IMG/VR virus record: IMGVR_UViG_3300037225_001188
Coordinates: 32,001-96,000 of that record
Length of the DNA stretch: 64,000 nt
Strand: one strand, 5' to 3'
Source: a virus
Of the stretch, positions 26,196 to 61,161 are shown one piece after another (positions within the stretch are counted from its first letter, which is position 1; each line of letters opens with the position of its first letter). The notes below the pieces were generated by a model, which did not search any database, had not been told where the DNA came from, and worked only from the letters and a program-made list of their open reading frames with translations. Both the position numbers and the translations under genes were made by a program.

Positions 26196-26786
26196 CTACG
26201 CCTCCATCAGCAGTTGCGATAGGCACGCGAGGGCGGAATCCATGAATGCAGCCCTCGCCACAGCCCACGCCGCAGCCCCCGCCGCAGCCCCCGCCGCAGC
26301 CGACGCCGCAGCCCCCGCCGCATCCCACGCCGCAGCCCCCGCCGCAGCCCCCGCCGCAGCCCCCGCCGCAGCCCCCGCCGCATCCCACGCCGCATCCCAC
26401 GCCGCAGCCGACGCCGCATCCGACGCCGCATCCCACGCCGCAGCCCCCGCCGACGCCGCATCCCACGCCGCATCCGCCATCTCCTCTTGGCTCACGCTCT
26501 CCGGGTCCTCGACGCACCGCCGCACGACCGCGAGGCACTGCGCCACGCGCGGATCGGTGCTTAGGTGCGCAACCTGCTCCGCGCACCAGAGCGCGTACGC
26601 CCGCTGGGACCCCGGCCCTTCGTCGGACAGGACGTGCCAGAGCCACCACGAGTCTAGCCCCTCAGCGGCGAGGTCGAACAGCGTCTCCACCGTCGGCTCG
26701 CAGCCGGCGGGATAGAGGTTCTTGAAGGCGTCGCGCTGCCCCTCGCAGGCGCCGTGCTTCACGAGCAGGTCGTAGGTGATCTTCAT
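26196..26786 (-). CDS. Protein with AAWDAA/AAGAA low-complexity repeats
   Basis: LLVKHGACE N-terminus; mosaic 12-nt repeat tract at about 26260-26475. Confidence 0.75.
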   Translation of the reverse strand: MKITYDLLVKHGACEGQRDAFKNLYPAGCEPTVETLFDLAAEGLDSWWLWHVLSDEGPGSQRAYALWCAEQVAHLSTDPRVAQCLAVVRRCVEDPESVSQEEMADAAWDAASAGAAAWDAASDAASAAAWDAAWDAAGAAAGAAAGAAAGAAAWDAAGAAASAAAGAAAGAAAWAVARAAFMDSALACLSQLLMEA

Positions 26787-39501: not shown

Positions 39502-40281
39502 ATGAAGCCTGATCGACCCCGCCTCTACCGCGGCCGCCCCGTCCGGCCGAAGGCTGCGGCCGACCGGCCCGGCCGCACGGGCAACCCGCTCGTCGCCGTC
39601 GGGTACATCCGCGTCTCGAAGGATGAGCAGGACCTCTCCCCCGAGGCCCAGCTCGAGGCGATGGAGGGATGGTGCCGCGGCCGAGGCGTCGTCCTCGCCT
39701 CGTGGCACGAGGACCGCCTCTGCAGCGTCACCGCGGTGGACCAGCGCCCCGGGCTGATGGAGGCGCTCGAGCAGGTGCAGGCGCTCGGGGCCGGCGTGCT
39801 CCTCGTCGCCAAGCGCGACCGCCTCGCCCGCGACCCCATCATCACCGCGATGGTCGAGCGCCTGGTCGAGCGCGCCGGCGCCCGGGTGCAGTCCGCGGCT
39901 GGCGAGGGCACGGACGGCGACGGCCCGGTCGACCAGCTCATGCGGCGCATCGTCGACGCCTTCGCCGAGTACGAGCGGGCCCTCATCCGCCAACGCACCA
40001 AGGCCGCGCTGGCCGTCAAGAGCCGCCGCGGGGAGCGCGTCGGGGGCGTCCCGTACGGGTGGCGGGTCGCCGCGGACGGGGTGCACCTGATTCCCGACGA
40101 GGTCGAGCAGCACATCATCAAGATGGCGAGCGAGCTGCGCGACCAGGGGCAGTCGCTCAACGAGGTCTCGGACTCGCTTGCTCGCTTGGACCTCGTCTCG
40201 CGCCGCGGGGTCCCGTTACAGAAGATGTCGATCAAGCGGATGGTGAGCGGGCGGAGGCTCGCCCAGGTGGACCTGACTTGA
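39502..40281 (+). CDS. Serine recombinase (resolvase plus short recombinase domain)
   Basis: GYIRVS, RPGL, VAKRDRLARD, FAEYER..IRQRTK, GGVPYGW. Confidence 0.92.
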   Translation: MKPDRPRLYRGRPVRPKAAADRPGRTGNPLVAVGYIRVSKDEQDLSPEAQLEAMEGWCRGRGVVLASWHEDRLCSVTAVDQRPGLMEALEQVQALGAGVLLVAKRDRLARDPIITAMVERLVERAGARVQSAAGEGTDGDGPVDQLMRRIVDAFAEYERALIRQRTKAALAVKSRRGERVGGVPYGWRVAADGVHLIPDEVEQHIIKMASELRDQGQSLNEVSDSLARLDLVSRRGVPLQKMSIKRMVSGRRLAQVDLT

Positions 40282-40425
40282 TCGTCTGTGACCACTGCCG
40301 GCAGAGCGTGCTCGCCAGGCGCCGGGTCGTCTGCCCGCACTGCGACGCCGACCTGTGCGAGGGCTGCTACGACTCGCACCGCTGCCACGGGCGCGAGGAC
40401 GCCTGCCGCTGCCGAGAGGAGAGTC

Positions 40426-41694
40426 ATGCTCCAGACCGACCTGCTTGACCGCATCGCCGCAACCACTAAGAAGAACGAGAAGCTCGCGCTCCTGAAACAG
40501 GTCGAGGGGGAGACCCGCGAGCTGCTGCGTCTGGCGCTCGATCCGATGGTCACCTTCGGGCTCACCGTCGCCGAGTGCACGAAGCATGGCTGGAGCGGCG
40601 ACCCGCAGGAGGTCCAGCATGAGCTGCTCCAGGAGGCGGAGTGGTGGCCGGTCCTGACCGACCTGGCCTCCAGGCTGGCGTCGCGCAGCTTGACCGGCAA
40701 CGAGGCGAAGGAGGCGGTCCACGTCGTTTGCCAGTCGGCGCCGAACGCCGCGGCCGCGTTGTGGGCGTCGCGGATGCTCAACAAGGATCTCCGCGCCGGG
40801 GTCGCCGGCGGCATCGTCCTCGACGCCATCCCCGACCTCTACGAGGAGTTCGAGGTCTGGTTGGCGAAGCCGTACGAAGACCAAGAGCTGCCAGAGACAG
40901 CAGTGCTTGAACGCAAGCTTGATGGGTTACGCATGGTAGTGATGGGAGGCAAAGCCTTCACGAGAAATGGGCACGTCATCTCATCAGTCGATCCGATAAT
41001 CGAGCAACTACCAGATCAAGTTCGTAATAAATTCGTAACCGACGGTGAGATCGTTGGAGCCGAGTTCGATGATACTTCCGGTCAGGTGCGACAAAAGAAA
41101 GGACGAGCATCTGAATCGCTCGTGTACAATGTCTTTGATCTTATCTCCTTGCAAGAGTGGAAATCGCGAGACACAGCTATTCTTCTAGAGCGGAAAGAAA
41201 TGATGACCGAGTTGCTCATCCCATATCAAACTGAGAATATCGGCGTTGTTCCGTGGGACATTGTCAAGAATATAACAATTGAAGTAGCTATCGCTAAACG
41301 CGATAATTACTTGAGCCTCGGGTACGAAGGCGTAATGATCAAGGACGCATCGAGTCAGTACGTGTGGGGGCGTAACAACTCGATGATGAAACTCAAGAAG
41401 ATGGACAACCTCGATGGCATCGTCGTCGGCACATATGAAGGGAAGAAGGGTAAGACTAAAGGCAAGCTCGGAGGTCTGAGCGTAAGACATTCTGGCAAGA
41501 TCAAAGGCGGTCTCGAAGTCGAAGCCGTGACCGATGTCGGTAGTGGATTCACTGACAAGCAACGTGTTGAATTGTGGGCAATGCGTGAGCAGCTTGTCGG
41601 TTGGTGTGTCGAGATTCAATTTCAGAACTTCACGTCAAAAGAAGGAAGAATGCGCTTCCCGGTCTATCTTGGAAGGCGTCCAGATAAAGAATGA
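40426..41694 (+). CDS. ATP-dependent DNA ligase (phage type)
   Basis: ERKLDGLR (motif I), DGEI, FDL, YEGVMIK, MKLK, VGSGFTD, RFPVY. Confidence 0.95.
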   Translation: MLQTDLLDRIAATTKKNEKLALLKQVEGETRELLRLALDPMVTFGLTVAECTKHGWSGDPQEVQHELLQEAEWWPVLTDLASRLASRSLTGNEAKEAVHVVCQSAPNAAAALWASRMLNKDLRAGVAGGIVLDAIPDLYEEFEVWLAKPYEDQELPETAVLERKLDGLRMVVMGGKAFTRNGHVISSVDPIIEQLPDQVRNKFVTDGEIVGAEFDDTSGQVRQKKGRASESLVYNVFDLISLQEWKSRDTAILLERKEMMTELLIPYQTENIGVVPWDIVKNITIEVAIAKRDNYLSLGYEGVMIKDASSQYVWGRNNSMMKLKKMDNLDGIVVGTYEGKKGKTKGKLGGLSVRHSGKIKGGLEVEAVTDVGSGFTDKQRVELWAMREQLVGWCVEIQFQNFTSKEGRMRFPVYLGRRPDKE

Positions 41695-41699
41695 GACTT

Positions 41700-41771
41700 G
41701 GCTCGGCGGGGCTCGGTTAGGCGGGGCTTGGCGCTGCAAGGCAAGCTACGGCTCGGCGTTCCACGGCAAGG
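41700..41771 (+). ncRNA. Phased GGY-NN pentamer array, candidate guide RNA of the adjacent RAMP protein
   Basis: GGCtc GGCgg GGCtc GGTta GGCgg GGCtt GGCgc TGCaa GGCaa GCTac GGCtc GGCgt TCCac GGCaa GG; 11 of 14 units begin with GGY. Confidence 0.8.
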
Positions 41772-41808
41772 GATTCATTTAGTTAGTAGAACGCCAGAAA
41801 GATAATCA

Positions 41809-42384
41809 ATGCTGATCACGATAGAGATCAAGGGTCGCACTCCACTGTTGATGAACCGCTTCGGCGAGGTTCCTGAAGTCGCCACGACCAGCGGGCATGC
41901 TCCGGTTATGACGTCTTCGTCAGAGCGTGGCACTCCACGTACTCAGGCGGAGAAGGCCGCGTACCGCGACGCGAAGACCGGAGAGCTGTTCATCCCAGGA
42001 CCGAACGTCCTCTCGTGCCTTGTCGAGGCCGGGAAGTTCACGAAGGCTGGGAAGACGAAGCTCACGACCCAGAAGTCGACGCTCGTCACCGCCGGTTTGA
42101 TGCTGAACGAGGTCGCGCTCCCGCTCCACGTCAGCGAGTTCGAGGTCGACTCGCGCGGGGTCGTCATCCCGGCTACCGGGGGGCGCGTCATTCGTCATCG
42201 TCCGCGGCTCGACGAGTGGAGTTTGACGTTCTCGCTAGACGTCGACGAGACGATGTTCTCCGAGTCGTTGGTCAGGACGCTCGTCGACGATGCCGGGAAG
42301 AAGATCGGGCTCGGAGACTATCGTCCATCTCGCAAGGGTCCGTTCGGCAGGTTCGACGTGGTAGGATGGAAGGTCGAGAAGTAA
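41809..42384 (+). CDS. Stand-alone Cas7/RAMP-superfamily RNA-binding protein
   Basis: ITIEIKGRTPLLMN (first strand plus TP), LFIPGPNVLSCL (RAMP IPG motif), C-terminal G-rich loop GLGDYRPSRKGPFGRF. Confidence 0.8.
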   Translation: MLITIEIKGRTPLLMNRFGEVPEVATTSGHAPVMTSSSERGTPRTQAEKAAYRDAKTGELFIPGPNVLSCLVEAGKFTKAGKTKLTTQKSTLVTAGLMLNEVALPLHVSEFEVDSRGVVIPATGGRVIRHRPRLDEWSLTFSLDVDETMFSESLVRTLVDDAGKKIGLGDYRPSRKGPFGRFDVVGWKVEK

Positions 42385-42627
42385 CATGCCGCGAGGGCCG
42401 TACGAACACGACAGCCTGACCTTCGCCCCGGACCGGCAACTCGAGTGTCGGGGGTACGGCAAGTGCCTCGACGTCGCGCTCAGCAGCGGTTGGGTGTCGT
42501 GGTGTTGCACCGGGTGCACGAAGTTCGTCGAGCTGACGGCCGAGGAGAAGACCAGCGACATGATCGCCCTGCTCCACATCCTCGGGGAGCTGGAGTTCCC
42601 GCTCGGCATCAAGAAGAGGCACGACCC

Positions 42628-43260
42628 GTGAGGCCGGATCGCTACGACGGCGACCCCGACCTCGACCGCCTTGAGCGCACCGTCGCCGGGCTCGACGGCG
42701 TCGTCGAGATGGCGGTCACGGCCGCTCGCGAGAAGATCGGTGAGCCGACGTGCGCCGGGTGCCGGAGCCCGGGGTGCTGCTACCAGCGCGTGTCGGTGAC
42801 GCTGGCGGAGGCCCTGCCGATCGCGCGCCGGCTCATCAGCCGCGGGTTCGACTCCCCCGGGGTGCGGCGGCGGCTCGCCGGCGAGGGTGAGGAGATGTCG
42901 TCGCGCACGCCAGAGGAGTGGTGGGCGCTGTCGAGGCCGTGCTTCTTCCTCGGCGAGGGGCGGTGCTCTATCTACGACGTGCGCCCGGTGGCGTGCCGCG
43001 CTCGCTTCTCGTGGAGCGACCCGGAGTTGTGCCAGCCGCCGGCCGTCAGCGACGTCGTGACCGTCGACATGGTCGGCGCCGCCCGAGCCGTGGTGCAGCT
43101 CAACCTCGAGCTGTGCCGCGGCCTCGGCCTGAATGACGTCGTCACCTACGCCGGCGCCATGCCGCGGATGGTGGCGGTCGCGCTCGAGGCGCTCAGCAGA
43201 GACACCGCCGCTGCCGTCGAGTACCTATGGGGGCTGGAGTTTCCGATCGCGGGCCGCTGA
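42628..43260 (+). CDS. YkgJ/FliB-family cysteine-cluster protein
   Basis: CAGCRSPGCC ... PCFFLGEGRCSIYDVRPVACR. Confidence 0.85.
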   Translation: MRPDRYDGDPDLDRLERTVAGLDGVVEMAVTAAREKIGEPTCAGCRSPGCCYQRVSVTLAEALPIARRLISRGFDSPGVRRRLAGEGEEMSSRTPEEWWALSRPCFFLGEGRCSIYDVRPVACRARFSWSDPELCQPPAVSDVVTVDMVGAARAVVQLNLELCRGLGLNDVVTYAGAMPRMVAVALEALSRDTAAAVEYLWGLEFPIAGR

Positions 43261-47231: not shown

Positions 47232-48797
47232 ATGAAGACCAAGAAGCCGATCATCTACACGCTCACCGACGCCCACCGTAAGCGCCTTAAGCCGTGGGCC
47301 GACCAGTGGATCGCTAACGCCCTGTCGACCAAGCCGATGGACGACGCCGAGCGCGAGATCGTACGCAAGGCCGTCGCCGGGCTCTACGACGCTGCGAAGC
47401 TGCCGCAGCCGAAGGCCGTCGTGTTCTCGCGCGGTCCGATCTCGGGCGCCATCGCGGCTGGAGTCGCGGCGGGCGTGTGGCACCTGCGGAAGCACCCGGA
47501 AATCCACGCGAGCCTGTTCGGCCGCAGCGTGACCGAGCGCGAGATCACGGCGGCCATCGGTCCGGCGTGTGCGCGCGCGACGCTCGCGGCTATGCGCGGG
47601 ATGGCGAATGGACCGCCAGTTCAGCCTGCGCTGAAGGCGGAGAAGCCTCAGAAGCGCGCCGCCACCGACGCCGCCACCCGCGCCGCCACCGACGACGCCA
47701 CCCGCGCCGCCACCTACGCCGCCACCACCGCCGCCACCGCCGCCGCCACCGACGACGCCACCCGCACCGCCACCCGCGCCGCCACCCGCGCCGCCACCTA
47801 CGCCGCCACCTACGCCGCCACCGACGACGCCACCCGCGCCGCCACCGACGACGCCACCGACGCCGCCACCCGCGCCGCCACCGCCGCCGCCGCCGACGAC
47901 GCCACCCGCACCGCCACCGACGCCGCCACCCGCGCCGCCACCCGCGCCGCCACCGACGACGCCACCGCCGCCGCCACCCGCACCGCCACCGACGCCGCCA
48001 CCGCCGCCGCCACCTACGACGCCACCGCCGCCACCGCCGCCGCCACCGCCGCCGCCACCGCCGATCTGGCTCCGGTGGTCAAGTTCCTCGTCCTCTGCTG
48101 CGGCTACAACTGGCGCATGCGAAACGGTGGCAACCAGTGGTCCGGGTGGGTCGCGTTCCTGTCGTTCTTCCGCCACGTCGCGAAGCTCCCGCTCGACTAC
48201 GCCAAGTTCGACCACTACGAGCAGACGGCGCAGCACAGCGGTCCGCGCTTCACACACGCCGACTTCTGCCTCGTCTGCGACCGCCCGACGGTGCTCACGC
48301 TCGACAGCAATCACCGACCTCACGGCGAGTGCGGGCCGTCGCACCGCTGGGCCGACGGCTGGGCGCTCTACTACTGGCATGGCACGCAGGTCCCCGCGAA
48401 GCTAGTCGAGACGCCTGAGTCCTACACGGCGGCCGACATCGCGGCCGAGACGAACAGCGAGATCGTGCGCGCCCTCGCCGAGCGGCTGGGGTGGGAGGCG
48501 TTCGTCAAGCGGCTCGACGTGCAGACCATCAACTCGTGGACCGACCCGACGACCGGCCTCGCCTACGAGCTGCTGGAGAGCCGCACGCGCATCGGCGACG
48601 GCCAGCCGCGCTTCCTGCGGATGACCTCGCCCACCCTCAAGGACGGCTCGCAGCCGCAATACGTCGAGCCGGTCCACCCCGACCTCGCGACTGCGCAGGC
48701 GGCGCGACGCTGGCAGGGCGTCGACCACGACGGCAGTCGGCCAAGCGTCGCGGACTGCAACGCGCACCCCGAGTGCGCCTACGAAATGGAGGCGTAG
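47232..48797 (+). CDS. DUF6745-like protein with AAT(D/R/Y/A) repeat tract
   Basis: VCDRPTVL..HRPHGECGP..WADGWALYYWHGTQVP, NSEIVRA; repeats at 47657-48063. Confidence 0.8.
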   Translation: MKTKKPIIYTLTDAHRKRLKPWADQWIANALSTKPMDDAEREIVRKAVAGLYDAAKLPQPKAVVFSRGPISGAIAAGVAAGVWHLRKHPEIHASLFGRSVTEREITAAIGPACARATLAAMRGMANGPPVQPALKAEKPQKRAATDAATRAATDDATRAATYAATTAATAAATDDATRTATRAATRAATYAATYAATDDATRAATDDATDAATRAATAAAADDATRTATDAATRAATRAATDDATAAATRTATDAATAAATYDATAATAAATAAATADLAPVVKFLVLCCGYNWRMRNGGNQWSGWVAFLSFFRHVAKLPLDYAKFDHYEQTAQHSGPRFTHADFCLVCDRPTVLTLDSNHRPHGECGPSHRWADGWALYYWHGTQVPAKLVETPESYTAADIAAETNSEIVRALAERLGWEAFVKRLDVQTINSWTDPTTGLAYELLESRTRIGDGQPRFLRMTSPTLKDGSQPQYVEPVHPDLATAQAARRWQGVDHDGSRPSVADCNAHPECAYEMEA

Positions 48798-53511: not shown

Positions 53512-53711
53512 CCACCGCGATTCTGCGAGCGGGTTATGATCGGTCGTGGTCGCGGTCGGGGTCGCGGTCGCGGTCGCGGTCGCGGTCGAGGTCGCGGTCG
53601 GGGTCGTGGTCGGGGTCGCGGTCGTGGTCGGGGTCGTGGTCGCGGTCGCGGTCGGGGTCGTGGTCGTGGTCGCGGTCGGGGTCGCGGTCGGGGTCGGGGT
53701 CGTGGTCGTGA
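53508..53711 (+). CDS. Ser-(Arg/Gly/Trp) dipeptide-repeat peptide
   Basis: GTGA overlap with the previous gene; hexamer mosaic TCG-(C/G/T)GG. Confidence 0.6.
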   Translation: MTTAILRAGYDRSWSRSGSRSRSRSRSRSRSGSWSGSRSWSGSWSRSRSGSWSWSRSGSRSGSGSWS

Positions 53712-58254: not shown

Positions 58255-61161
58255 CTATTTGCTCAGCAGTTGCAGCCGCGCGAAGATGGCCCGCGCAGCG
58301 TTGGCGCCCGCGGTGTCTGCGCCTACGGCCACGGGGGTACAGTCCGCGGCGCCCGGTGTCCACGCGGCGCCCGCGTAGGACCCAATGACCGCGGCCCCGT
58401 CCTTGACGACGAGACTGCCCGTCGCAGCGTTCCACTGCACCTTGAGCGTGTGTCCCAGGTTGTCGAGGGTGCCGCACATGATGGCCGCGCCGCCGATGAG
58501 CGCGGGCGTGTTATCCCAGTTCCGCACTCGCAGGTTCGCCGCAGACATGAACAGCGGCGCCAGTTGCAGGTTGCCGGCGTAGTCAATGATGAGTGCTCCC
58601 GGCGCGCCCTCGGCACCCAGGGAGAGCAGGACAGGACGGGTGGAGTAGACCGTGACGGTGTTGCTACCGTAGTTCGCGATCCACGCCTGACCGAGCGCGT
58701 CGATGGCGACACTAAAGGGGTTGACGCCCGTCGCGTAGGTGCCAACGAGGACCTTCGTCGCGACGTTGTAGACCGTGACGGTGCCGCCGCCGTAGTTCGT
58801 GATCCACGCCTGACCGAGCGCGTCGATGGCGACACCATAGGGGCCGGTGCCCGTCGCGTAGGTGCCAACGACCGCCTTCGTCGCAACGTTGTAGACCGTG
58901 ACGGTGCTGGCGCCGTAGTTTGCGATCCACGCCTGACCGAGCGCGTCGATGGCGACACCAAAGGGGTTGGCGCCCGTCGCGTAGGTGCCAACGAGGGCCT
59001 TCGTCGCAACGTTGTAGACCGTGACGGTGTTGGCGCTGTAGTTCGTGATCCACGCCTGACCGAGCGCGTCGATGGCGACATCTCTCGGGTTGGCGCCCGT
59101 CGCGTAGGTGCCAACGAGGACCTTCGTCGCGACGTTGTAGACCGTGACGGTGCTGCTACCGTAGTTCACGATCCACGCCTGCCCGAGCGCGTCGATGGCG
59201 ACACCAACAGGGTTGGCGCCCGTCGCGTAGGTGCCAACGAGGGCCTTCGTCGCGACGTTGTAGACCGTGACGGTGCCGCCGCCGTAGTTCGTGATCCACG
59301 CCTGACCGAGCGCGTCGATGGCGACACCATAGGGGTTGACGCCCGTCGCGTAGGTGCCAACGACCGCCTTCGTCGCAACGTTGTAGACCGTGACGGTGCC
59401 GCCGCCGTAGTTCGCGATCCACGCCTGACCGAGCGCGTCGATGGCGACACCAAAGGGGTTGGCGCCCGTCGCGAATGGGCTCCCCGCCACTGCCACCGGA
59501 GCGCACCCGGCTGGGTTGACGAACCCCGCCAGCGACAACGTGAGCGAGCCCTTGGCCGGGGTGTAGCGCGCGTTCCCGACGTTGGTGCACTGCTCGCTCG
59601 GGATGCTCGTGCTCACCGCCGCCCCGGCCGCAGTCGCACGGTACGCCAGCGGCGGAACCGCGGTGCCCGTCATCGCCCACGCCTCGGAGAACACCACGGT
59701 CCCCGTCGCGGCGCCGATCTGCGGGTAGCAGCGCATGACCGCGCTCGTCTGGCCGGCGTGCGCGCACTGCGCCGACCCGTACCAAGTAGGGCACTTGCCG
59801 TCGGCGTCGGGGTAGGTGGACTCGGCGACGGGCACGGTGCCAGTGAGGGTCTTGCAGATGATCTCCTCGGCGCCTCCGCCGCTGCCAGACAGGTACAGGC
59901 TCACCGTGGCGTTCGTGTCGGCCGCGCCGCGTCGTGCGAGGACGCCAGCGGCGAACGAATCGCCGATGTGAGTGCTGAGCCCGGTCGCCGTGCCCGACGA
60001 AGCATAGCCGCCGTTGGACGTGGAGGCGACCTGCACAGCGTCACGCATGCCCGACGGGCCGTCGGCGGCGGTGAGGGTGGCGTTCGTTCCGGTCCAACCG
60101 GGCAGGTTCGCCGAGTTGATCCCAAGGAACGCCATGCCCACGTTGAGCACCTCGCCAGTGAGCAGGGCGTTCGCAGCATCCACCGGCAGGCTCGGGTGGT
60201 AGGCGAATGGCACCTGCCCCGCGCCGAAGCCGCCGATGCGGTTGCCGGGCACCGCGACGCGGATCGGGTTGGTCCGCGCGTAGGTGTTGGTCACGCCTGC
60301 GAGCCCGGCGGCGAGCGCGTGACGCCAGAAGGCAGCACCGTCGGCCGCGGTGAGTGCGGCGTTCAGGACGTAGCACACCGCGATCTGCCCGGCGAAACTG
60401 CTGGCCGTGTAGCCGAGGCTGCAATGTCCGGCGTTGGTCACGCTGCCGGTATAGGCCGCACTCGTCGCCGAGCCGAGGTCGGAGAACAGACTGACCACTT
60501 TGCCCGTATCGTCGAGAGTGAGGATGAACCAGTGCCATGCTCCATCACGCGGATCGACGGCGATCGAGGCCCGCTGCGTGGTCCCGCTGCCCGCGGCCGT
60601 GGCCCGCAGGTAGGTCGAGGAGCACGAGAGCGTCCAGCCGTGCGTGCCGTCCCACTTCGAGGCGATCCACGTCTCGGTGGCAGCAGCGCCCGGTCGGATG
60701 CGGAATGCCCCATGAACGGTGACGATGCTGCCGTTGGCGTTGCCGAAAGCCGTACCCGCGTCGGCGTAGTATTGCGCTCCGCCGAGTAGCTCAATCGCCA
60801 GCTTCGCCGCGAAGGAACTGCCCCCCGCCAGCGCCACGGCGACCCGGCTGTCCAGCGCCAACGTCTGCGCGAGGTTCGGACCGAGCGCGAGACTGTCGAT
60901 CTGAGCACCGATGTTGGCGCACAGATACGCAGCCTGGACATTGGCCGCTATCGCGGCCGTCCCGGGCATGGCCGCGAGGTATGCCGCCGCCGTCGCCGGG
61001 AACGGCTGCACCATGCCCGCGATCCCCGGCGTGAGCCCGAGCAGGGAGTTGCTGCGCGCGTCGAGCTGCGCCAGCACCTGCGCCGGGGCCGCGATGAGCC
61101 CGCCCCCGCGCCCGTGCAGCGCGAGGCCGGACCCGCCGAGCCCGGGAGCCCCGAGTGCCAT
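58255..61161 (-). CDS. Tail/receptor-binding protein with a LamG-like region and a 7-bladed beta-propeller
   Basis: DGAWHWFILT..FAGQI (LamG-like); seven 40-aa NPxGVAIDALGQAWI repeats. Confidence 0.75.
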   Translation of the reverse strand: MALGAPGLGGSGLALHGRGGGLIAAPAQVLAQLDARSNSLLGLTPGIAGMVQPFPATAAAYLAAMPGTAAIAANVQAAYLCANIGAQIDSLALGPNLAQTLALDSRVAVALAGGSSFAAKLAIELLGGAQYYADAGTAFGNANGSIVTVHGAFRIRPGAAATETWIASKWDGTHGWTLSCSSTYLRATAAGSGTTQRASIAVDPRDGAWHWFILTLDDTGKVVSLFSDLGSATSAAYTGSVTNAGHCSLGYTASSFAGQIAVCYVLNAALTAADGAAFWRHALAAGLAGVTNTYARTNPIRVAVPGNRIGGFGAGQVPFAYHPSLPVDAANALLTGEVLNVGMAFLGINSANLPGWTGTNATLTAADGPSGMRDAVQVASTSNGGYASSGTATGLSTHIGDSFAAGVLARRGAADTNATVSLYLSGSGGGAEEIICKTLTGTVPVAESTYPDADGKCPTWYGSAQCAHAGQTSAVMRCYPQIGAATGTVVFSEAWAMTGTAVPPLAYRATAAGAAVSTSIPSEQCTNVGNARYTPAKGSLTLSLAGFVNPAGCAPVAVAGSPFATGANPFGVAIDALGQAWIANYGGGTVTVYNVATKAVVGTYATGVNPYGVAIDALGQAWITNYGGGTVTVYNVATKALVGTYATGANPVGVAIDALGQAWIVNYGSSTVTVYNVATKVLVGTYATGANPRDVAIDALGQAWITNYSANTVTVYNVATKALVGTYATGANPFGVAIDALGQAWIANYGASTVTVYNVATKAVVGTYATGTGPYGVAIDALGQAWITNYGGGTVTVYNVATKVLVGTYATGVNPFSVAIDALGQAWIANYGSNTVTVYSTRPVLLSLGAEGAPGALIIDYAGNLQLAPLFMSAANLRVRNWDNTPALIGGAAIMCGTLDNLGHTLKVQWNAATGSLVVKDGAAVIGSYAGAAWTPGAADCTPVAVGADTAGANAARAIFARLQLLSK
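58645..59472 (-). repeat. Seven near-identical 120-bp tandem repeats
   Basis: Direct inspection. Confidence 0.95.

What the first reader, a model, noticed from the sequence alone, without database searches (positions are those of the whole stretch)
40852..40887. The array's NN code is complementary to the neighbouring DNA ligase gene when every third base is skipped
Seen: reverse-complementing the NN units gives GA.GT.TT.TT.GC.AA.CC.TA.GA.CC.GA. The ligase coding strand at 40852-40884 reads GAg GTc TGg TTg GCg AAg CCg TAc GAa gac caa: 17 of 18 nt match over nine consecutive units. The skipped base is the codon wobble position (peptide EVWLAKPYE, just upstream of the KLDG motif). Rough chance under uniform composition is about 8e-10 per site, or about 1e-3 or less for the window, and the hit lies in the adjacent gene. 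Inference: the true target is a relative's ligase allele encoding roughly (E/D)V(L/F)(L/F)AKPY(E/D)P(E/D). Skipping wobble bases would resist synonymous escape, and the mismatches at 40859 and 40879-40882 may protect self.
Basis: partly seen in the sequence, partly recalled or inferred. Interest (0 to 1): 0.95.

Follow-up and report, generated by a model that had tools for sequence, protein, structure and literature searches.

The report
Phage VIPR guide RNA targeting ligase
The five-base repeat behind the phage's DNA ligase gene is the guide RNA of a VIPR system, a recently described CRISPR-like silencing device, and it is aimed at the ligase gene of closely related phages, so this is a real but already explained kind of element.

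Summary
The reverse complement of the NN dinucleotides of the GGCNN array (41700-41754) matches ligase codon positions 1-2 at 40852-40877 in 17 of 18 bases. Only 6 of 15,852 shuffled arrays do as well anywhere in the window.

The two closest ligase homologues read EVFLAKPYDPDK, which fits 21-22 of 22 guide bases. None of 1000 scrambled guides exceeded 19 over the 120 proteins.

This is not a new kind of system. It is a VIPR system, described in three 2026 bioRxiv preprints. They report GGY/NN vrRNAs, a "1-nt skip" code aligned to wobble positions, and a small Cas7-like protein, Vipr. The gene after the array (41809-42384) matches PDB 36pp "SUSP1 Vipr protein" (E 3.5e-7). This scan has already noted VIPR arrays on other DNA.

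Locus-specific points:
- The target is a phage ATP-dependent DNA ligase.
- The phage's own ligase is a near-target (18/22).
- A sharp recombination joint (GC3 0.93 to 0.52) lies inside the target site.

Verdict: a new member of a known kind.

The parts
41695..41754 (+). vrRNA guide region. It has 11 GGY/NN-type pentamers (41700-41754), plus a possible 12th, degenerate 5' unit GACTT (41695-41699). 9 of the 11 units (9 of 12) conform to GGY.
   Evidence: Phased pentamers are seen. The array is unique in the 130.8-kb genome: 27/30 GGC positions against at most 22/30 elsewhere. It is enriched over shuffles, with 5 pattern matches against a mean of 0.13. The match to relatives' ligase stops exactly at these unit boundaries, by my reading of the alignment against the NN list.
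41755..41795 (+). Putative vrRNA 3' tail: a predicted hairpin with a 7-bp outer stem. It contains the degenerate units 12-15 of the array.
   Evidence: MFE structure of 41680-41810. The whole-region z-score of -0.36 is not significant, so this is a prediction only. Units 12-15 do not match the target in relatives (2 of 8 bases, by my reading).
41809..42384 (+). vipr gene: a 191-aa Cas7-like RAMP protein that would bind the GGY motifs.
   Evidence: phmmer hit to PDB 36pp_D 'SUSP1 Vipr protein', E 3.5e-7, residues 45-184 against 52-187. The G-loop GLGDYRP aligns to GVGDWRP. phrog_4652 E 9.9e-21. AF2 model pLDDT 84.2. Top Foldseek hits are chains of type III Csm/Cmr and type VII CRISPR complexes, E about 1e-6. 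Homologues lie next to GGCNN arrays in 66 of 120 loci found by the DNA pattern alone.
40426..41694 (+). ATP-dependent DNA ligase gene (422 aa), chimeric in composition.
   Evidence: Pfam DNA_ligase_A_M and OB_2. phrog_114 E 6.8e-87 over residues 4-422. GC3 is 0.93 for codons 1-151 and 0.52 for codons 152-422.
40852..40886 (+). Near-cognate self site of the vrRNA on the ligase coding strand (peptide EVWLAKPYEDQE). It matches 18/22 (11 units) or 19/24 (12 units) informative bases. The skipped bases are codon position 3.
40873..40878 (+). Composition joint, read as a recombination breakpoint, between ligase codon 150 (TAC) and 151 (GAA). This is inside the target, between target units 8 and 9.
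   Evidence: GC3 in 15-codon windows is 1.00 for 40831-40875 and 0.47 for 40876-40920. The GC profile agrees. A 386-nt contig of an independent run (X3, another study) spans 40652-41037 with 0 differences.
40876..41694 (+). Low-GC ligase segment (catalytic and OB domains), apparently of foreign origin.
   Evidence: GC 0.48 and GC3 0.52, against 0.91-0.94 GC3 in the flanking genes.

Best explanation
The locus is a single-guide VIPR system of a 130.8-kb phage from a metagenome.

Proposed mechanism:
- The intergenic RNA after the ligase gene is a vrRNA. It has 11-12 GGY/NN pentamers followed by a hairpin tail.
- Vipr protomers, encoded by the next gene, each sequester one GGY. They present the NN dinucleotides.
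- The NN dinucleotides pair antiparallel with double-stranded DNA in an NNx register, skipping every third base.
- This guide specifies GAxGTxTTxTTxGCxAAxCCxTAxGAxCCxGA(xAA). In codon phase that is EV(F/L)(F/L)AKPY(D/E)P(D/E)(K/N), a conserved stretch just upstream of the KxDG adenylation motif of phage ATP-dependent DNA ligases.
- The intended targets are the ligase genes of closely related, competing phages, which would be transcriptionally silenced.
- The phage's own ligase is only a near-target. It is a homologue that has lost 4-5 informative matches. One loss is at the Trp codon. The rest lie beyond a recombination joint that replaced the 3' two-thirds of the gene with a low-GC allele.

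Shown here: the match statistics, Vipr homology, the perfect-fit allele in relatives, and the joint.

Inferred from the preprints or by reasoning: that the RNA is made and loaded, that binding silences, and that the self site escapes.
For: The code:
- The best hit at gap 1 is 17/18, reached by 6 of 15,852 shuffles.
- Gaps 0 and 2 give background scores of 16/24.

The target allele:
- P0003 and P0004 read EVFLAKPYDPD, which is 21-22 of 22. P0002 and P0006 reach 19-20.
- None of 1000 scrambled guides exceeds 19 over the 120 proteins.
- At DNA level, the two closest IMG/VR ligase loci score 21/24 (L002) and 20/24 (L003) at the homologous site. The other 78 of 80 loci score 17 or less.

The protein:
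- PDB 36pp_D 'SUSP1 Vipr protein', E 3.5e-7, with the G-loop D-aromatic-R conserved.
- A Cas7-like fold.

Array and protein association:
- 66 of 120 loci found by the GGCNN pattern carry a homologue, mostly adjacent and on the same strand.

Published mechanism:
- GGY/NN vrRNAs of 9-16 units, the 1-nt skip aligned with wobble positions, both strands targeted, no PAM, transcriptional repression, and some systems with a single vrRNA (10.64898/2026.04.26.720920, section 4).
- The structural basis, and R-loop growth 3' to 5' from the tail (10.64898/2026.04.26.720927, section 4).
Against: - No DNA with a perfect target was found. Exact-pattern scans of viral, metagenome and genome contigs each gave 0 hits. 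The perfect fit therefore rests on protein sequences, with one base (the Leu codon) undetermined.
- No conserved vap accessory gene was identified. 0 of 80 related vipr loci share any of the window's neighbouring genes.
- The tail hairpin is not statistically supported, and no conserved tail was seen in relatives.
- 3 of the 12 units deviate from GGY.
- The self site stands at 82% (11 units). That is above the 80% cut-off at which the preprint reports no self hits, so self-silencing cannot be excluded.
Confidence: 0.88

Rival explanations
1. Autoregulation. The near-cognate self site is a functional target. The RNP binds its own ligase gene about 850 bp upstream of the vrRNA. It throttles read-through transcription of ligase, vrRNA and vipr, giving negative feedback.
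For: The self site keeps 17/18 matches in the nine tail-proximal units. Published intermediates show that filament and R-loop assembly starts at the tail end and proceeds 3' to 5'. Ligase, vrRNA and vipr are co-oriented with short gaps. 18/22 is 82%, above the preprints' 80% cut-off for target calling.
Against: A perfect match exists in relatives, so the guide is tuned to another allele and not to self. The preprint found no self hits at 80% or above in its sets. Over 12 units the self identity is 79%. In 810 guide windows from other VIPR loci, self-locus matches barely exceed scrambles: 16/20 or better in 20 windows against 8 for scrambles.
Confidence: 0.12
2. Linked drive-like pair. The vrRNA silences the ancestral ligase allele carried by close kin, and the adjoining chimeric ligase is the resistant allele. 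The two therefore spread or persist together, and the recombination joint inside the target is the footprint of selection for escape.
For: The GC3 switch lies inside the target, between units 8 and 9. The vrRNA starts directly after the stop codon of the replaced ligase segment. The ligase N-terminal part is closest to the clade that carries the perfect target: 60-62% identity against 47% or less for the others. The C-terminal part is about equally distant from many. The joint is present in an independent run.
Against: Conserved motifs are also the likeliest places for neutral homologous crossover. vipr GC3 (0.79) differs from both ligase halves, so the block was not acquired in one event. No ligase lies next to vipr in the 120 + 80 other loci examined. 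No donor of the low-GC segment was found.
Confidence: 0.2
3. Chance. The array is a VIPR vrRNA, or some other repeat, and its resemblance to the ligase gene is coincidental.
For: The finding is post hoc, from a scan of very many windows. Full-length self scores are reached by 8-19 of 3000 scrambles.
Against: The three self-mismatched units are all repaired in the closest relatives, giving 21-22 of 22 against a scrambled maximum of 19 in 1000 trials. The match is in codon phase and only at gap 1, as the published rule requires.
Confidence: 0.02

Closest known systems
VIPR systems (Vipr protein + vrRNA). The characterised examples are from Escherichia phage SUSP1 and a Pseudomonas fulva prophage (bioRxiv 10.64898/2026.04.26.720920, 10.64898/2026.04.26.720927, 10.64898/2026.10.15.759431).
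   Same: - A small RAMP protein with direct sequence homology to SUSP1 Vipr.
- GGY/NN pentamer guide units within the published 9-16 range.
- An intergenic position flanking vipr.
- Antiparallel pairing with one skipped base per unit, falling on codon wobble positions.
- Phage-borne, with the predicted target in a competing phage.
   Different: - A single short vrRNA instead of an array of several.
- A simple predicted hairpin tail rather than the SUSP1-clade pseudoknot.
- No recognisable vap gene.
- The target is a DNA ligase gene. 'Ligase' has 0 occurrences in the main texts of two of the preprints. Their supplementary target tables could not be seen.
- An 82% self near-target lies in the adjacent gene, whereas the preprint reports none at 80% or above.
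Class 1 CRISPR-Cas effector backbones (Cas7 family: Csm3/Cmr4, type VII Cas7)
   Same: The RRM/RAMP fold with a G-rich loop and thumb. Top Foldseek matches have E about 1e-6 and TM about 0.5. Guide bases are periodically displaced by a thumb, as the preprint describes.
   Different: There is no CRISPR repeat-spacer array, no other cas genes and no adaptation module. The period is 5 on the guide and 3 on the target, instead of 6 and 6. The guide is contiguous in CRISPR and gapped here.
TRAP-type RNA sites (triplet plus 2-3-nt spacer repeats bound by a ring protein). Recalled from general knowledge, not from any call.
   Same: A conserved triplet with a 2-nt variable spacer at a 5-nt period in an intergenic leader.
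   Different: In TRAP sites the spacers carry no information, whereas here they spell a target. No TRAP-like protein is present, and the adjacent protein is a RAMP. This was a working idea, dropped.

Membership tests
VIPR system | Vipr protein: a minimal RAMP (RRM core, G-loop, thumb) homologous to characterised Vipr | tested here: met
   phmmer against PDB sequences gives 36pp_D 'SUSP1 Vipr protein', E 3.5e-7. The alignment covers 45-184 of 191 residues, and the G-loop GDYRP aligns with GDWRP. The AF2 model (pLDDT 84.2) matches Csm/Cmr/type VII chains at E about 1e-6.
VIPR system | vrRNA: tandem GGY/NN (YNNGG) pentamers, 9-16 units, in the intergenic DNA flanking vipr | tested here: met
   11-12 units at 41695/41700-41754, 55 nt upstream of vipr on the same strand. 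9 of the 11 units are GGY. The array is unique in the genome.
VIPR system | Target recognition by the 1-nt skip rule, with skipped bases on wobble positions of coding targets | tested here: met
   The best hits occur only at gap 1 and in codon phase. Relatives' ligase fits 21-22 of 22, against a scrambled maximum of 19.
VIPR system | Invariant structured 3' tail capping the repeat tract | tested here: inconclusive
   A hairpin is predicted at 41755-41795, but the fold is no better than shuffles. No shared tail was evident in the 30 related upstream regions printed.
VIPR system | vap accessory gene next to vipr | tested here: inconclusive
   The neighbours are an 81-aa Cys-rich ORF and a CxxCxxCC-domain protein. 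Neither has a homologue in the 80 related vipr loci. The preprint's vap families are defined in supplements that I could not read.
VIPR system | vrRNA expressed and bound by Vipr as an RNP that represses the target | not testable with these tools
   No RNA run holds the locus. This needs wet-lab work.
VIPR system | Carried by a virus or provirus | tested here: met
   The window is part of a 130,793-bp IMG/VR virus record with a CheckV completeness of 100.
CRISPR-Cas (class 1) | A repeat-spacer array with a contiguous spacer, plus further cas genes | tested here: not met
   No such array appears in the tandem-repeat list. The neighbours are not cas genes.

The most novel reading that the evidence does not exclude
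The vrRNA and the chimeric ligase form a linked pair for discriminating against kin. The guide silences the ancestral ligase allele still carried by the phage's closest relatives. The adjoining ligase escaped through a crossover inside the 35-bp target. This would be the first natural footprint of escape from VIPR by recombination, or of a drive-like 'silencer plus resistant allele' module.
Probability: 0.2. Interest if true: 0.7.

Novelty: new member of a known kind. Interest (0 to 1): 0.4.

Why it matters
This locus gives independent confirmation of the VIPR noncontiguous code. A blind reading of one locus recovered the 1-nt wobble-skip rule and correctly predicted a target allele that exists in relatives.

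It also adds a natural target class, the essential DNA ligase of competing phages.

It offers a compact test case for two questions that the main texts I read do not quantify:
- How many mismatches, and at which end, protect self.
- Whether targeted phages escape by recombination rather than by point mutation.

Tried and rejected
Leads that went nowhere:
- Rfam scan of 40000-43000 at E up to 10 gave only two sub-threshold sRNA hits, unrelated to the array.
- Folding both strands of 41680-41810 gave z-scores of -0.36 and -0.01, so no significant structure.
- DNA search of 40300-41900 against phage records found no match.
- A single-protein ligase search of viral contigs found no match.
- None of the 80 ligase loci found with an alignment has a comparable pentamer array. 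Their best scores were A/T-rich low-complexity runs.
- Exact gapped-target scans gave 0 hits each in viral contigs, metagenome contigs (Leu as YT) and genome contigs. P0003 and P0004 must fit that pattern, so their contigs are evidently not in those collections.
- The promoter and terminator scan gave nothing useful around the vrRNA.
- No RNA holder is listed for the locus.
- A survey of 810 guide windows from other VIPR loci for self-locus near-targets showed only a slight excess over scrambles: 20 against 8 at 16/20 or better, 6 against 2 at 17/20, and 1 against 0 at 18/20. No general 'linked target' pattern was shown.

Ideas dropped:
- TRAP-like protein-binding site with meaningless spacers.
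- Homing-endonuclease-like or group II intron-like guide.
- Coding pentapeptide repeat. The pentamer frame excludes most stop codons regardless of coding, and the overlapping 82-aa ORF has no family hit.
- Assembly chimera as the cause of the GC switch. An independent run bridges the joint with 0 differences.

Supplementary files of the preprints (target tables, type and vap definitions, mismatch panels) were not seen. They may already list ligase targets or mismatch tolerance.

Full report
**Observation**

The sequence directly after the ligase stop codon (TGA 41692-41694) is a phased run of pentamers, GGC plus two variable bases, at 41700-41774.

I reverse-complemented the variable dinucleotides. 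I then laid them on the window with 0-3 skipped bases between units, on both strands and for every sub-run of six or more units. The best hit is 17 of 18 bases at 40852-40877 with one skipped base. The skipped base is the third codon position of the ligase (ATG 40426, 422 aa).

Chance controls:
- Only 6 of 15,852 shuffles of the unit order scored as well anywhere in the window.
- Scored full length in the whole 130,793-bp genome, the self hit is 18/22 (11 units) or 19/24 (12 units).
- That full-length score is reached by 8-19 of 3000 scrambles, depending on the scramble type.
- With 0 or 2 skipped bases the best hit is 16/24.

**What the array is**

The array is the only one of its kind in the genome: 27/30 GGC positions against at most 22/30 elsewhere.

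In 66 of those 120 loci, tblastn finds a homologue of the 191-aa protein encoded just after the window's array (41809-42384). The homologue is usually adjacent and on the array's strand, and sometimes has arrays on both sides.

At that point I asked the scan's notebook. It pointed to earlier follow-ups that read such arrays as VIPR guide RNAs and named 2026 preprints. I then checked the preprints myself.

**What the preprints say**

bioRxiv 10.64898/2026.04.26.720920 (I read the outline, section 4 in full, sections 20 and 27, and term passages) describes Viral Interference Programmable Repeat systems:
- They consist of a minimal RAMP protein (Vipr) and vrRNAs.
- The vrRNAs carry 9-16 GGY/NN repeats followed by a structured tail.
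- The NN dinucleotides specify double-stranded DNA targets by a "1 nt skip rule".
- The skipped bases fall overwhelmingly on codon wobble positions.
- Either strand can be targeted, and no PAM is needed.
- The outcome is transcriptional repression of competing phages or satellites.
- Some systems encode only one vrRNA.
- In the sets analysed there, no self hit reached 80% NN match.

10.64898/2026.04.26.720927 (outline, section 4 in full, term passages) gives the structural basis:
- One protomer binds per repeat.
- GGY is sequestered and the N4/N5 bases pair with target N1/N2.
- The x3 base is flipped out.
- Filament and R-loop formation proceeds from the 3' tail towards the 5' end of the vrRNA.

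10.64898/2026.10.15.759431 (outline with abstract, section 17, term passages) states that matching codon periodicity prevents escape by mutation. It uses an identity score of at least 0.8 for candidate targets.

A fourth paper (10.64898/2026.10.21.760802) I saw only in the search listing.

**Membership tests**

- The 191-aa protein matches PDB chain 36pp_D, "SUSP1 Vipr protein", by sequence alone (E 3.5e-7).
- In that alignment its GLGDYRP loop lies on SUSP1's GVGDWRP. These are the D177/W178/R179 contacts to the GGY bases described in the structure preprint.
- It belongs to phrog_4652, a family of unknown function, and has no Pfam family.
- An AlphaFold2 model from a 30-sequence alignment has pLDDT 84.2 and pTM 0.79.
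- The model's best Foldseek matches are chains of type III Csm/Cmr and type VII CRISPR complexes (E about 1e-6, TM about 0.5). That these chains are the Cas7-family backbone subunits is my recollection. The fold library predates the Vipr entries.
- The tail is only a predicted hairpin (41755-41795).
- No vap gene could be recognised. None of the window's neighbouring genes recurs in the 80 related vipr loci.

I file the locus as a VIPR system, with the tail and vap features unresolved.

**The target**

The guide's reverse complement, read in codon phase, spells (E/D) V (F/L) (F/L) A (K/N) P Y (D/E) P (D/E).

In the alignment of the ligase with its 24 best homologues, the three closest read FEVFLAKPYDP(S/D)KH where the window reads FEVWLAKPY--EDQE. 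These are P0002-P0004, at 52-53% identity by BLASTP (55-56% in the alignment).

I scored all 120 listed homologues by the best codon choice:
- P0003 and P0004 reach 22 of 22 (21 if Leu is CTN).
- P0002 and P0006 reach 20.
- 1000 scrambled guides never exceeded 19 over the same 120 proteins.

The degenerate pentamer just 5' of the array (GACTT, 41695-41699) would add AA, the next codon (Lys) in those relatives. The unit before it does not fit, and neither do units 12-15. The match therefore delimits an 11-12-unit guide. This is my reading.

At DNA level, the two closest ligase loci in IMG/VR score 21/24 (L002) and 20/24 (L003) at the homologous site. The other 78 of 80 loci score 17 or less.

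Exact scans for the full pattern found nothing in the viral, metagenome or genome contig collections. The perfect target is therefore documented only through protein sequences.

**The self site and the chimeric ligase**

GC3 is 0.93 over ligase codons 1-151 and 0.52 over codons 152-422. In 15-codon windows it falls from 1.00 (40831-40875) to 0.47 (40876-40920). The switch therefore lies between codon 150 (TAC) and 151 (GAA), inside the target between its units 8 and 9 (GC profile).

Flanking genes have GC3 of 0.91-0.94, and vipr has 0.79.

The N-terminal part is 60-62% identical to P0002-P0004 and 47% or less to the other homologues. The C-terminal part is 53% identical to them and 38-51% to the others. 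The GC-rich part therefore belongs with the clade that carries the perfect target.

The joint is not an assembly artefact. A 386-nt contig from a run of a different study spans 40652-41037 without a difference (X3, record 21). The 8153-nt contig of X1 also spans it but may be the source of this DNA.

The self-mismatches fall in two places:
- One is a changed base in the Trp codon (40859).
- The other three are bases just beyond the joint (40879, 40880, 40882), which face the two 5'-most guide units.

The published assembly pathway starts at the tail. So the nine matching units are the ones engaged first. Whether the remaining mismatches suffice to protect self is open. I found no mismatch-tolerance data in the main texts.

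**Most likely mechanism**

The vrRNA is made from the ligase-vipr intergenic region and loaded with about 11-12 Vipr protomers. The complex binds and silences the ligase gene of closely related co-infecting or resident phages that carry the EV(F/L)LAKPYDPDK allele.

The phage's own ligase resembles the target because it is a homologue. It has diverged at the site through a point change and a recombination event.

Confidence that this is a VIPR guide-target relation is about 0.88.

Rivals:
- The self site is a working autoregulatory target (about 0.12).
- The guide and the resistant chimeric allele form a selected, linked pair, with the joint a footprint of escape (about 0.2; compatible with the main reading).
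- Chance (about 0.02).

Against a general linkage pattern, no ligase lies beside vipr in the 200 other loci examined. Self-locus near-targets in 810 guide windows from other loci barely exceed scrambles.

**Novelty and verdict**

The kind is known: three 2026 preprints describe it, and this scan has noted it several times on other DNA.

What this locus adds:
- A ligase target. "Ligase" does not occur in the main text of the two preprints searched. Their supplements were not seen.
- A single-guide architecture with a simple tail.
- A near-threshold self site that straddles a recombination joint.

This is a new member of a known kind, of moderate interest.

Noticed in passing
window 40288-40425: An in-frame upstream extension of the ligase ORF (GTG 40288). 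By eye, the DNA here has several Cys codons suggesting a small zinc-ribbon peptide in another frame. Contigs of runs X2 and X3 carry a cluster of small insertions at 40362-40377 and a 1-nt deletion at 40423. This stretch therefore varies between otherwise near-identical phages.
   Followed up: no
window 41700-41757 (run X4, record 30): A 153-nt contig from a lake-water metagenome aligns to the guide region with 10 differences in 58 bases. This is probably another vrRNA with the same GGC scaffold but different NN bases.
   Followed up: no
window 41809-42384: The protein database holds a 138-aa version of this gene, 100% identical over 65% of the query (P0130). All homologues cover the full 191 aa, so the public gene call appears to start too late.
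   Followed up: partly
L093:6300-7040, L131:7600-9100, L184:4371-5110: Very long GGCNN tracts of more than 100 units lie directly after a vipr homologue. In L093 the tract is followed by an ORF that looks like a RusA resolvase (recalled motif, not searched) and a large helicase-like ORF. These are multi-guide VIPR arrays, far larger than the window's single guide.
   Followed up: partly
window 26248-26452, 47657-48060, 53541-53708, 58645-59473: Long tandem repeats with periods of 12, 12, 6 and 123 nt (17, 34, 28 and 6.7 copies). They are presumably coding repeats in structural proteins.
   Followed up: no
window 39502-40281: A serine recombinase (Resolvase domain, E 1.6e-29; phrog_95/125) lies immediately upstream of the ligase. 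GC3 is 0.94, so it is native in composition.
   Followed up: no
L202-L234, upstream of vipr: In the vipr clade closest to the window (49-61% identity), the upstream guide tracts are short and degenerate. Many end in a shared motif, roughly CAAACCAAGGAG, just before the start codon. The window lacks this motif.
   Followed up: no
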